DNA of 64,000 nt from sequence record PP434423.1; one strand, written 5' to 3'. The stretch comes from Escherichia phage 236Ecol005PP. Under the pieces are notes generated by a model. The model had not been told where the DNA came from. It made no database searches and saw only the letters and a program-made list of their open reading frames with translations. The first letter of the stretch is position 1, and each line of letters opens with the position of its first letter. This document shows positions 20,207-38,240 of this stretch, piece by piece. The translations under genes were made by a program, and so were the position numbers.

Positions 20207-20926
20207 TTAGGATTCTTCTAAATGTCTTTTCTGAAAAGTTGATACCATACTACGATACGGTTCATTTGGATATCCGTGTTTTATAGCTTCCTTTGTAAAT
20301 TTTCTCCATCCATATTTAGTTTCTTTCCAAAGCTCGAATAATTCATCTTCATACTGCCATATAGTTAAATGAGAACGCTTTGCAGCTTTAATTCCATTAA
20401 TATGCTTTTCTTTTACTGCAGGATTGCTTAGTTTCTTTTTAATAATATTACTAACTTTTCTAACAAAAACTGGGTCCTTATATCGTTGCGAAGTTTTTAT
20501 TGAAGTGTTTAATTTAACTTCCGGCGTGGATGTAACCTCTTTCATCTTTTTCTTCATATGCTGTATATGATTAGGATTTTTCCATAAATTTATAGAATGC
20601 TTTTTGCATTTTATCCTAGTTTCATCTGCAACCTTTCCTCCTTCACCCCCGTATGACAGGTTAACACAGTTTTTTCCATATTTCAATTTACCTGCCATGA
20701 TATATAATATTTCAGCTTGTACCATTTTATCATAATTATCAAAAACTTCTAAAACCGTTTTTGATAATATGTGGTCATTTGACACTTTTACACGTTCTAT
20801 ATAATTTCCACTACCAACATACGAATCATTGATGTTATTAGTTATATGTCGACCATAATAGTATTTCTTAATACCTGTCTTTAAATTTAATATTTCAGTT
20901 TTATAGATAGTAAAATATTTTTTCAT
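20207..20926 (-). CDS. putative GIY-YIG homing endonuclease (at the slot T4 uses for mobD)
   Basis: 239 aa; N-terminal TIYK-x12-YYYG, YGKNCVN, Lys-rich C-terminal half. Confidence 0.5.
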   Translation of the reverse strand: MKKYFTIYKTEILNLKTGIKKYYYGRHITNNINDSYVGSGNYIERVKVSNDHILSKTVLEVFDNYDKMVQAEILYIMAGKLKYGKNCVNLSYGGEGGKVADETRIKCKKHSINLWKNPNHIQHMKKKMKEVTSTPEVKLNTSIKTSQRYKDPVFVRKVSNIIKKKLSNPAVKEKHINGIKAAKRSHLTIWQYEDELFELWKETKYGWRKFTKEAIKHGYPNEPYRSMVSTFQKRHLEES

Positions 20927-36760: not shown

Positions 36761-36895
36761 CCATTTTGTGAAAAAATTTTTTTAAAAGTTTTAGGGAATT
36801 CTAGGGCAGGGAGGGGCAATTAAAGGATAGGATAATATATTATAAAGGGTAGAAACTAAATGATGCCTAGAGAGGTCCAAAAAGGCCTAGATACT

Positions 36896-36922
36896 AAAAA
36901 GCCCCAACCTTTCGGCTGGGGC
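36896..36922 (-). terminator. strong rho-independent terminator ending the tRNA/small-RNA transcription unit
   Basis: minus GCCCCAGCC-GAAA-GGUUGGGGC followed by UUUUU. Confidence 0.65.
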
Positions 36923-36925
36923 TAA

Positions 36926-37205
36926 GCCTTGCGGCAACCTTGTCGGGGTTCCACCTGCTAAGGCAAGTGTTTGTACGAAACGCCGGGATTTGAACCCGGT
37001 TATTGAGCAGTTGACGCTACTCAATATTTTTAAAAGGCCATATCTCGACCATATCCGAACGTTCCGTCAAAAACGCTACTCGGCTTACGGCAAAGATATT
37101 TCCTCGAATCGATAATTCGGTGCGCCGTTTCTGCTGTGATGTAAGAGGGCATCAATAAACGCAAAGATTATTAACGCAATTCCTTACTCAGGGAACATCA
37201 GTCCG
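36926..37205 (-). ncRNA. candidate structured small RNA(s), tRNA-like (possible counterpart of T4 stable RNAs C/D)
   Basis: ~280 nt with no ORF in any minus frame; contains tRNA T-arm-like CCGGG-UUCAAAU-CCCGG flanked by pairable CGGAACG/CGUUUCG; bounded by terminator. Confidence 0.35.
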
Positions 37206-37210
37206 ACGAC

Positions 37211-37765
37211 TTACCGGTAGCGACCCGGTTTCTCATTTGGTATTTCAAATTGTGTAGATTTAGTATCTAATTTTTTAACTATGGAACTTATGTCATGAAA
37301 GAAAAACCATTCGCCATTTATATGGTCCTGATTATAAATGCTGTGCATATATTTTTCAAGTTCTACTGCATCCTGGGAATATCTAAATGATACTATTTTA
37401 AAACTTTTAAACGGTGAAAATGTATTTGCTGTTATAACTCTAACATCAGGTTCTATACTTCTTCCTATTTTATAATAATTAGGATTTGTAGTATCTACCA
37501 TTATGTATACGAAAGCCTGTCGATAGCTTTTTTCTATATCAAATTCATCTTTAAATTTCAAAAGATTTAGGGCGGCAGTCCTACAAAATACTTTCCATTT
37601 TGACAAGCGTTTGGCTTCAGTCATAGAAAAGAATTTTTTCTTATCTGTTATTTTAAGAAAAGCAACATTTTCAATTAGTTCTTGTGTTATTTCAAAATTA
37701 CCGCGGTATATTAATCCAGCTTTTATAGCCAAATTAATTTGGTCCCAGTCTACATCACTTCTCAT
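37211..37765 (-). CDS. T5orf172/GIY-YIG-like domain protein in tRNA region
   Basis: 184 aa; C-terminal FVYIMVD...NYYKIGRSIEPDVRV...E...H...GEWFFF pattern typical of T5orf172 (MUG113) domain. Confidence 0.5.
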   Translation of the reverse strand: MRSDVDWDQINLAIKAGLIYRGNFEITQELIENVAFLKITDKKKFFSMTEAKRLSKWKVFCRTAALNLLKFKDEFDIEKSYRQAFVYIMVDTTNPNYYKIGRSIEPDVRVITANTFSPFKSFKIVSFRYSQDAVELEKYMHSIYNQDHINGEWFFFHDISSIVKKLDTKSTQFEIPNEKPGRYR

Positions 37766-37785
37766 AATATTATTCTCTCAATAAT

Positions 37786-37862
37786 TTGGCCAGGGTGAAA
37801 GGATTCTAACCTTTAACCTGCGGTTTAGAGGACCGCTACTCTATACAATTGAGTTACACCCC
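37786..37862 (-). tRNA. tRNA-Arg (anticodon UCU), CCA encoded
   Basis: manual cloverleaf: acceptor CGGGGUG/CACCCUG, D ACUC/GAGU, anticodon stem GCGGU/ACCGC loop CCUCUAA, T-arm AAAGG-UUAGAAU-CCUUU. Confidence 0.75.
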
Positions 37863-37987
37863 GTAATTAGTTCACAGCAATACCTACTCCAACAATCAAG
37901 ATGTCTTCACACGAAATTAAGAGAAGAGTGATCAGTTCAACCACTATAATCGCGTCAAGTAGATATTAATGTGACAACTGTCACAAG

Positions 37988-38062
37988 TTTGGCGGACATG
38001 CATGGATTCGAACCATGGACCAATTGATTAACAGTCAACTGCTCTACCACTGAGCTACACAT
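37988..38062 (-). tRNA. tRNA-Asn (anticodon GUU), CCA encoded
   Basis: manual cloverleaf: acceptor GGAUGUG/CAUGUCC, D GCUC-AGUGGUA-GAGC, anticodon loop CUGUUAA, T-arm CAUGG-UUCGAAU-CCAUG. Confidence 0.75.
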
Positions 38063-38165: not shown

Positions 38166-38240
38166 TTTGGTGGCCCTGGGTGGAATTGAACCACCATCTG
38201 GCGATTATGAGTCGCTTGCTTGAACCTTCCAGCTACAGGG
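38166..38240 (-). tRNA. tRNA with CAU anticodon (Ile-lysidine type as in T4, or Met)
   Basis: acceptor GGCCCUG/CAGGGCC, anticodon loop CUCAUAA, T-arm GGUGG-UUCAAUU-CCACC. Confidence 0.7.

What the first reader, a model, noticed from the sequence alone, without database searches (positions are those of the whole stretch)
37211..37765. T5orf172-type (GIY-YIG-like) domain protein embedded in the tRNA region
The C-terminal half of this 184-aa ORF follows the T5orf172/MUG113 pattern (hydrophobic core, YKIGRS, spaced R/E/H, GEWFFF). It lies between tRNA-Arg and the non-coding tRNA-like region, the region where T4 carries segB. It may be a mobile endonuclease that promotes inheritance of this tRNA block, or a DNA-binding regulator; the N-terminal 80 aa are unassigned.
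Basis: partly seen in the sequence, partly recalled or inferred. Interest (0 to 1): 0.45.

Follow-up and report, generated by a model that had tools for sequence, protein, structure and literature searches.

The report
Selfish nuclease gene among phage tRNAs
A real 184-residue gene in the tRNA cluster of a T4-like phage encodes a T5orf172-type (GIY-YIG superfamily) nuclease that looks like a mobile "homing endonuclease" travelling with its own tRNA-Arg gene. It is an ordinary kind of element, but its whole subfamily turns out to sit strictly between phage tRNA genes.

Summary

The window is a Tequatrovirus. The gene starts 21 nt after tRNA-Arg(UCU), and its last 26 nt run into rnaD. This is the other side of tRNA-Arg from T4 segB, and the protein shows no sequence similarity to SegB.

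- **Sporadic distribution:** only about 10 distinct phages (15 records) among roughly 1000 related phage records carry it at >=90% identity.
- **Alternative slot contents:** T4 has the slot empty, and 426 records hold an unrelated 116-aa ORF there.
- **Lateral exchange:** a 628-bp cassette (variant tRNA-Arg + ORF) is 95% identical to Gapriverviruses, where flanking genes are about 80%.
- **Family-wide placement:** all 15 relatives sampled, in T4-like and T5-like phages and probably including the founding T5 orf172, sit between tRNA genes.

Best reading: a free-standing homing endonuclease that targets tRNA-gene junctions (confidence 0.6; cleavage not shown). It is a new member of a known kind. 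The N-terminal 80 residues remain unassigned.

The parts
37211..37765 (-). 184-aa ORF, the T5orf172-family protein. It is a full-length member of PHROG 5032 and a homologue of T5 ORF065.
37526..37765 (-). N-terminal ~80 aa. A four-helix module (H7-15, H28-37, H42-47, long basic helix H50-74 carrying the invariant W57 and CRTAALNxLK motif). It has a single Cys, so no zinc finger. Presumed to be the DNA-recognition part; fold unassigned.
37298..37513 (-). T5orf172 / MUG113 (GIY-YIG superfamily) domain, aa 85-156. Invariant across the wider family: Y87, K99, G101, R109, P118, E137, E152, W153.
37766..37786 (-). 21-nt spacer between tRNA-Arg and the start codon, carrying a GAGAG Shine-Dalgarno-like element. 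This spacer is conserved (AAATTxATGAGxATAAxAT) in carriers from six genera.
37787..37863 (-). tRNA-Arg(UCU), a variant allele (T-loop GGTTAGAATCC, D-loop without GG). It is linked to the ORF: copies at >=95% identity occur in 15 records, the same number as carry the ORF at >=90% protein identity.
37237..37864 (-). The exchanged cassette (tRNA-Arg allele + spacer + ORF). It is 95% identical to Gaprivervirus VR26 while flanking coding DNA is about 80%. It is absent from T4 and from Aplg8.
37238..37243 (-). ATACCA. This equals the last 6 nt of the T4-type tRNA-Arg and here encodes Ile-Pro of the ORF tail. It marks the junction where homology to T4 ends.
37118..37236 (-). rnaD (species 2 RNA) homologue. 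The last 26 nt of the ORF, including the stop codon, lie inside it, and the tail residues NEKPGRYR are read from rnaD sequence.
36973..37111 (-). rnaC (species 1 RNA) homologue, downstream in the same transcription unit.
36900..36923 (-). Intrinsic-terminator-like hairpin followed by a T run, closing the tRNA / ORF / rnaD / rnaC unit.

Best explanation
The ORF is a free-standing homing-endonuclease gene of the T5orf172 branch of the GIY-YIG superfamily, lodged in the tRNA cluster of a T4-like (Tequatrovirus) phage. It is co-transcribed with the tRNAs and translated from a Shine-Dalgarno-like site 21 nt after tRNA-Arg. The N-terminal four-helix module would recognise DNA, and the C-terminal T5orf172 domain (Y87, R109, E137/E152) would cut it. 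In a mixed infection with a relative that lacks the gene, the enzyme would cut at or near the junction between the 3' end of tRNA-Arg and the next RNA gene. Recombinational repair from the carrier genome would then copy the cassette (variant tRNA-Arg + ORF) into the recipient and displace what was there. Shown here: family membership, fold, conservation, purifying selection, sporadic distribution, cassette boundaries, empty and filled sites, and cross-genus exchange. Inferred only: nuclease activity, the target site, and preferential inheritance.
Confidence: 0.6

Rival explanations
1. The protein is a domesticated T5orf172 protein that no longer homes. It is kept because it helps the phage, for example by cutting the DNA of competing phages or satellites (as ICP1 Odn does), or by binding DNA as a regulator (as the PLE protein CapR does). 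Its place in the tRNA cluster would then be historical.
For: Purifying selection is steady (dN/dS 0.1-0.25) in both domains. The gene stays next to tRNA-Arg in six named genera plus an unclassified T4-like contig, despite saturated synonymous divergence. Odn and CapR are documented cases of T5orf172-related proteins put to other uses (PMC8263062, PMC10448857). There are weak PADLOC hits to the T5orf172 parts of defence candidates PDC-S57 and PD-Lambda-1.
Against: It does not explain why every sampled relative is wedged between tRNA genes in at least 8 different slots. It does not explain the exact empty/filled site pair. It does not explain why the cassette is 95% identical across genera whose flanks are 80% identical. 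The catalytic-type residues are intact, so a purely binding role is not indicated.
Confidence: 0.2
2. The protein acts on RNA rather than DNA. It would be a factor tied to the neighbouring tRNAs, for example in processing the tRNA precursor in which it is embedded, or in attacking or protecting tRNAs in the conflict with host anticodon nucleases.
For: Adjacency to tRNA genes is strict (15 of 15 sampled), and the gene is co-transcribed with them. In T4-like phages it is linked to one particular tRNA, Arg(UCU), which here is an unusual allele. Phage tRNA clusters are known counter-defence loci (PMC13096335, PMC11464382).
Against: All the closest structural matches are DNA endonucleases. To my knowledge no GIY-YIG or T5orf172 protein acts on RNA. 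In T5-like and Aeromonas phages the neighbouring tRNAs differ (Cys, Asn, Lys, Glu, Tyr, Met), so there is no single tRNA partner. Presence/absence with precise junctions is the signature of a mobile DNA element.
Confidence: 0.08
3. The ORF is an inert or decaying remnant of a formerly mobile gene, with no present activity.
For: Homing endonuclease genes commonly decay after fixation. One relative (Aeromonas phage phiAS4) is split by a frameshift. The ORF tail here is read-through into rnaD.
Against: The reading frame is intact in all enterobacterial-phage carriers examined. dN/dS is 0.1-0.25, and the motif residues are invariant.
Confidence: 0.05

Closest known systems
T5 ORF065 (172 aa; most likely the 'orf172' that gave Pfam PF10544 T5orf172 its name) and its copies in T5-like phages
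   Same: The full-length architecture is the same: an N-terminal helical module followed by a C-terminal T5orf172 domain. tblastn gives 29% identity over 85% of the length, E 1e-7, and T5 ORF065 hits Pfam T5orf172 at E 2.5e-12. The placement is also the same. T5 ORF065 starts 21 nt after tRNA-Cys and ends 24 nt inside tRNA-Asn. The window ORF starts 21 nt after tRNA-Arg and ends 26 nt inside rnaD.
   Different: It belongs to a different phage family (Demerecviridae rather than Straboviridae), has different flanking tRNAs, and shares only about 29% identity. That ORF065 is the eponymous orf172 is my inference, from its length and from the VR7 annotation 'similar to BF23 ORF172c'.
T4 SegB (GIY-YIG free-standing homing endonuclease of the T4 tRNA cluster)
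   Same: Both are free-standing GIY-YIG-superfamily genes inside the same tRNA cluster, next to tRNA-Arg, and co-transcribed with the tRNAs. SegB recognises the tRNA T-arm motif GGTTCRANTCC...CCAR, cuts at tRNA 3' ends, and drives inheritance of neighbouring tRNA genes (PMC2330249). That is the behaviour proposed here.
   Different: There is no detectable sequence relationship (hhalign probability 0.1%). The domain order is opposite: SegB has an N-terminal GIY-YIG domain and a C-terminal DNA-binding part, whereas here the nuclease is C-terminal. The slot differs too: segB lies between tRNA-Ile and tRNA-Arg, and this ORF lies between tRNA-Arg and rnaD. No close SegB homologue is encoded in these 64 kb; the best match is a 27%-identical seg-like ORF.
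ICP1 T5orf172 homing-endonuclease genes and the Odn nuclease (gp88)
   Same: The nuclease domain family is the same. Odn is the experimental proof that a T5orf172 domain cuts DNA and needs the conserved Glu (PMC8263062). ICP1-type T5orf172 genes mark the boundaries of genetic exchange between phages (PMC10448857), as this cassette does.
   Different: The ICP1-type proteins use CapR / DUF723 / DUF4397 zinc-finger or RepA_N DNA-binding domains and sit near essential protein-coding genes. This protein has a zinc-free four-helix module with one Cys and sits between RNA genes. That study states that T4 has no T5orf172 genes, and it does not discuss tRNA neighbourhoods.
GIY-YIG nucleases of known structure (SLX1, I-TevI catalytic domain)
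   Different: Sequence identity is 12-17%, there is no sequence-level match to any PDB entry, and the generic Pfam GIY-YIG model is below threshold.

Membership tests
Pfam T5orf172 / MUG113 (clan GIY-YIG) | Profile match above the curated gathering score | tested here: met
   MUG113 scores 38.0 bits against a cut-off of 22.3 (E 2.6e-9). T5orf172 scores 27.9 bits against a cut-off of 20 (E 3.4e-6). All 12 database homologues carry both domains in precomputed annotation.
Pfam T5orf172 / MUG113 (clan GIY-YIG) | Conserved motif residues: Tyr of the first strand, xKIG, Arg in helix 1, and Glu of GEW | tested here: met
   Y87, K99, G101, R109, E137, E152 and W153 are invariant in 25 sequences. Y98 is variable in distant members.
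Pfam T5orf172 / MUG113 (clan GIY-YIG) | GIY-YIG alpha/beta fold | tested here: met
Pfam T5orf172 / MUG113 (clan GIY-YIG) | Metal-dependent DNA endonuclease activity | not testable with these tools
   Only a precedent is available: Odn E180A (PMC8263062).
Free-standing homing endonuclease gene | Sporadic presence among close relatives, with the same locus empty or differently filled | tested here: met
   15 carrier records (about 10 distinct phages) at >=90% identity among 1066 related records. T4 has the slot empty. A 116-aa ORF fills it in 426 records. In Jiaodavirus the slot is empty in phage 17-11.
Free-standing homing endonuclease gene | Discrete cassette with sharp boundaries that is more similar between lineages than its flanks are | tested here: met
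   Cassette 37237-37864 is 95% identical to VR26, against about 80% for flanking coding DNA. This is not seen against Mosigvirus AV110, where both are about 80%.
Free-standing homing endonuclease gene | Cleavage of the cognate ORF-less site, with the carrier's own site protected | not testable with these tools
   The insertion splits the Arg|Thr (KpV477) or Arg|rnaD junction, which would protect carriers. This is inference only.
Free-standing homing endonuclease gene | Endonuclease-dependent preferential inheritance in mixed infection | not testable with these tools
   Requires phage crosses.
T4 Seg family (SegA-G, canonical GIY-YIG homing endonucleases) | Sequence homology to Seg proteins or the Pfam GIY-YIG domain, with that domain at the N-terminus | tested here: not met
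   hhalign against T4 SegB gives probability 0.1%. Pfam GIY-YIG gives E 0.13 and 13 bits against a cut-off of 22.6. The nuclease domain is C-terminal.
ICP1-type T5orf172 homing endonucleases (CapR / DUF723 zinc-finger DNA-binding domains) | Zinc-finger (CxxC...CxC) DNA-binding repeats fused to T5orf172 | tested here: not met

The most novel reading that the evidence does not exclude
The 'orf172 proper' subfamily (PHROG 5032 and relatives) may be a dedicated lineage of homing endonucleases. Its targets would be tRNA-gene junctions, and its cargo would be tRNA genes themselves. Members insert about 20 nt after one tRNA and borrow their stop codon from the next RNA gene. They would move tRNA alleles between genera, and possibly between phage families (Straboviridae and Demerecviridae). 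The linked tRNA-Arg(UCU) allele lacks the T-arm motif that SegB recognises. It could therefore be a cleavage-resistant or defence-evading variant that the nuclease helps to spread. On this reading, such elements would be a main driver of how phage tRNA repertoires are assembled.
Probability: 0.3. Interest if true: 0.6.

Novelty: new member of a known kind. Interest (0 to 1): 0.38.

Why it matters
T5orf172 genes are already regarded as homing endonuclease genes, and the T4 tRNA cluster is already known to host one (SegB). The gene itself is therefore unsurprising. Three things add something.

- A published survey states that T4 has no T5orf172 genes, but some Tequatroviruses and five other T4-like genera do carry one.
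- The mobile unit includes a tRNA gene, so the element directly reshuffles phage tRNA content. Recent work links that trait to escape from tRNA-cleaving host defences.
- Every sampled member of this subfamily, probably including the founding T5 orf172, sits between tRNA genes with a stereotyped geometry. I did not find this described in the papers I could search.

If the nuclease proves to cut tRNA-gene junctions, it would give a second, unrelated enzyme family with SegB-like biology. It would also be a convenient system for studying how tRNA clusters are exchanged between phages.

Tried and rejected
- **Relationship to T4 SegB:** a profile comparison found nothing. The 'segB-like' idea holds only by analogy.
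- **Sequence search of solved structures** with the family profile: no hit at E <= 10.
- **NCBIfam:** no family.
- **PADLOC:** only weak hits to the T5orf172 part of defence candidates. A defence-system reading was not pursued.
- **Foldseek against AFDB:** the library was unavailable.
- **IMG/VR scan:** alignment A3 was too divergent to use. A2 recovered only three phages already known.
- **Is the variant T-loop of tRNA-Arg shared by all carriers?** No. Klebsiella and Serratia phage carriers have a canonical, T4-type tRNA-Arg.
- **Is the linked tRNA-Arg a pseudogene?** Rejected. It scores 59.3 bits on Rfam tRNA, within the range of its neighbours.

Full report
**What is there**

The window is a T4-like phage of genus Tequatrovirus. 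Its closest records are REP2, REP3, BCH953P2 and LF82-9, at about 97-98% identity over the tRNA region.

On the - strand lies the T-even tRNA cluster, in this order:
- Gln, Leu, Gly, Pro, Ser, Thr, Met(CAU), Tyr, Asn
- a 126-bp gap
- tRNA-Arg(UCU) at 37787-37863

Twenty-one nucleotides downstream of tRNA-Arg, the 184-codon ORF 37765-37211 begins with ATG after a GAGAG Shine-Dalgarno-like element.

Alignment to T4 places the rnaD and rnaC homologues at about 37118-37236 and 36973-37111. A terminator hairpin follows at 36923-36900. The ORF therefore sits inside the tRNA/stable-RNA transcription unit. Its last 26 nt, including the stop codon, lie within rnaD. The first 33 nt of the reported interval are 100% identical to the T4 rnaD / tRNA-Arg junction.

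**Is it a gene, and of what family?**

It is a gene, and it belongs to the T5orf172 family.
- Pfam MUG113 (E 2.6e-9, 38 bits) and T5orf172 (E 3.4e-6, 27.9 bits) both pass their curated cut-offs over aa 85-155. The generic GIY-YIG model does not (E 0.13).
- PHROG phrog_5032 ('unknown function') matches aa 1-176 at E 2.7e-59. NCBIfam has nothing.
- Homologues at 53-99% identity conserve both halves, including an invariant W57 and CRTAALNxLK helix in the N-terminal part.
- Nei-Gojobori dN/dS is 0.1-0.25 in each half.
- An exhaustive profile search found 2273 clusters sharing the domain at E <= 0.001. Dozens of the 150 best-scoring clusters listed share the whole 160-190-aa architecture.
- Across 25 such sequences, down to 21% identity, Y87, K99, G101, R109, P118, E137, E152 and W153 are invariant.
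- The AF2 model is confident (pLDDT 90.6, pTM 0.86). It shows four N-terminal helices followed by a beta-beta-alpha-beta-alpha-beta-alpha domain.

**Comparative anatomy of the locus**

Homology breaks off sharply against three comparison phages:
- Against T4, homology runs through rnaC and rnaD and stops at 37243. That is six bases (ATACCA) into what in T4 is the 3' end of tRNA-Arg. It resumes only at 38223.
- In T4, tRNA-Arg abuts rnaD, and segB lies on the other side of tRNA-Arg, between tRNA-Ile and tRNA-Arg.
- Against Aplg8, homology breaks at 37234-37872. Aplg8 has there an unrelated, unannotated 116-aa ORF, its own tRNA-Arg and a tRNA-His. That 116-aa ORF occurs in 426 phage records.
- Against the Gapriverviruses VR26 and VR7, the segment 37237-37864 (exactly ORF + spacer + tRNA-Arg) is 95% (VR26) identical; in VR7 a longer block that also spans rnaC/rnaD is 93% identical. 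Neighbouring coding DNA is about 80% identical.

The tRNA-Arg in this cassette differs strongly from the T4 and Aplg8 alleles. It still scores as a good tRNA (59.3 bits). Copies at >=95% identity occur in 15 records, the same number as carry the ORF at >=90% protein identity. Every such record I could identify in the listings is an ORF carrier.

The unit that comes and goes is therefore a 628-bp cassette: tRNA-Arg allele + ORF.

**Distribution**

- 15 records carry the protein at >=90% identity. These are about 10 distinct phages: Tequatroviruses teqskov, REP2/3, LF82-9, UFV-AREG1, sutha, TB004 and BCH953P2, plus Gapriverviruses VR7, VR26 and ESCO10. By comparison, 1066 records match the surrounding region.
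- More distant orthologues (53-80%) occur in Mosigvirus, Jiaodavirus, Winklervirus, Muldoonvirus and a T4-like metagenome contig.
- In every one of these the ORF starts 15-21 nt after a tRNA-Arg(UCU), and the spacer is conserved.

Jiaodaviruses provide a clean empty/filled pair. Phage 17-11 has ...tRNA-Arg-AAATTTA|AATCAC-tRNA-Thr. KpV477 has the ORF inserted exactly there, with ATTTA at both junctions. Its stop codon is the TAG inside the 5' end of tRNA-Thr.

**A family-wide habit**

Relatives at 27-40% identity in T5-like phages and Aeromonas T4-like phages are also all wedged between tRNA genes:

| Phage | Upstream | Gap or overlap | Downstream |
|---|---|---|---|
| T5 ORF065 | tRNA-Cys | 21 nt before ORF; 24 nt overlap after | tRNA-Asn |
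| S124 | tRNA-Arg(GCG) | 18 nt before ORF; 15 nt overlap after | tRNA-Glu |
| Riker | tRNA-Tyr | 16 nt before ORF; 10 nt overlap after | tRNA-Asn |
| S132, SP_Thor | tRNA-Met | 175 nt before ORF; 10 nt overlap after | tRNA-Lys |
| Kenya-K36 | not determined | overlap after | tRNA-Arg |
| phiAS4, 44RR2.8t.2 | tRNA-Tyr | ORF between | tRNA-Lys |

Counting the T4-like cases, 15 of 15 sampled members occupy at least 8 different inter-tRNA slots. Some of those slots are empty in sister phages: Cys|Asn is contiguous in S124, and Tyr|Glu is contiguous in T5.

T5 ORF065 is 172 aa and matches the whole Pfam T5orf172 model. VR7's annotators called their copy 'similar to BF23 ORF172c'. I infer that ORF065 is the eponymous T5 orf172.

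Other nuclease-like ORFs also occupy inter-tRNA slots. Phage 17-11 has an unannotated 218-aa RAP/REase_MTES_1575 ORF between tRNA-Leu and tRNA-Arg.

**Mechanism**

The most economical reading is a free-standing homing endonuclease.
- A T5orf172 domain has been shown to cut DNA in ICP1 Odn, and this requires the conserved Glu (PMC8263062).
- T5orf172 genes are treated as homing endonuclease genes that mark recombination boundaries in ICP1 and T5-like phages (PMC10448857).
- SegB shows that tRNA genes are good homing targets. It recognises GGTTCRANTCC...CCAR and cuts at tRNA 3' ends (PMC2330249). A 2026 study ties SegB-driven amplification of the tRNA locus to escape from Septu (abstract of PMC13096335, seen in the search listing; the paper itself was not read).

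I therefore propose that this enzyme cuts ORF-less genomes at or near the junction between the tRNA 3' end and the next RNA gene. Repair from the carrier would then copy in the cassette. In carriers the junction is split by the insertion, which would protect them.

Everything up to 'mobile cassette encoding a GIY-YIG-type nuclease' is shown here. Cleavage, target site and preferential inheritance are inferred. I give this reading 0.6.

Rivals:
- A domesticated nuclease or regulator, as with Odn or CapR (0.2). The steady purifying selection and the long-term linkage to tRNA-Arg fit this.
- An RNA-directed role tied to the tRNAs (0.08). There is no precedent in this fold.
- A dead remnant (0.05). 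The dN/dS values and intact motifs contradict it.

**Comparison with the known, and verdict**

The protein is a member of Pfam T5orf172/MUG113: profile, motifs and fold were all tested and met. It is not a Seg-family protein. hhalign to SegB gives probability 0.1%, the Pfam GIY-YIG model is below threshold, and the domain order is opposite. It also lacks the zinc-finger DNA-binding domains of ICP1-type T5orf172 genes.

It works like SegB by analogy only. In GenBank it is annotated as 'hypothetical protein' in the records examined, and no paper I could search discusses it.

The survey of T5orf172 genes says T4 has none, and it does not mention tRNA neighbourhoods.

The finding is a new member of a known kind. 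Its modest extra interest comes from the tRNA-carrying cassette and the subfamily's strict inter-tRNA placement.

Noticed in passing
window 37787-37863 (-): The tRNA-Arg(UCU) linked to the ORF has an unusual T-loop (GGTTAGAATCC, with A where C56 is expected) and a D-loop without the GG pair. It still scores 59.3 bits on Rfam tRNA. It lacks the SegB core recognition motif GGTTCRANTCC, which 8 of the 10 tRNAs in this cluster carry.
   Followed up: partly
window 37864-37989: The tRNA-His that Aplg8-type phages carry between tRNA-Asn and tRNA-Arg is absent here. Homology to Aplg8 resumes exactly at the 5' edge of its tRNA-His.
   Followed up: partly
window 37331-37359 (-): A near-consensus sigma-70-like promoter (TTGAAA, 17 nt, TATAAT; 11 of 12 matches) lies inside the ORF, about 95 nt upstream of rnaD. 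It could be chance in AT-rich coding sequence, or it could restore transcription of rnaD and rnaC.
   Followed up: no
window 20207-20926 (-): A 239-aa ORF shows 27% identity to T4 SegB over 167 aa (tblastn E 1.4e-9). It is probably another Seg-type GIY-YIG homing endonuclease gene elsewhere in the window.
   Followed up: no
window 36891-36926; L001 1726-2244; L002 1726-2244: REP2 and Aplg8 carry a ~520-bp insert between e.8 and rnaC that the window lacks. In REP2 it holds a 157-aa CDS with no Pfam hit. It is flanked by a 36-bp direct repeat that contains the terminator hairpin.
   Followed up: partly
L002 2587-2937 (-) (phage Aplg8): An unannotated 116-aa ORF fills the tRNA-Arg|rnaD slot in Aplg8 and is present in 426 phage records. 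It has no Pfam family. It is the common alternative occupant of the slot.
   Followed up: partly
L022 804-1460 (+) (Klebsiella phage 17-11): An unannotated 218-aa ORF lies between tRNA-Leu and tRNA-Arg. It has an N-terminal Cys/His cluster and RAP / REase_MTES_1575 (restriction-endonuclease-like) hits. It is another putative mobile nuclease in an inter-tRNA slot.
   Followed up: partly
L005 (phage T5, AY587007): The tRNA coordinates annotated in this record are offset by 68 nt from the ARAGORN predictions, while CDS coordinates agree with the tblastn match. With the ARAGORN positions, ORF065 starts 21 nt after tRNA-Cys.
   Followed up: partly
L017 1201-1721 (Aeromonas phage phiAS4): The family member between tRNA-Tyr and tRNA-Lys is annotated as two overlapping CDS (tblastn matches in two pieces). 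It appears to be a frameshifted, decaying copy.
   Followed up: no
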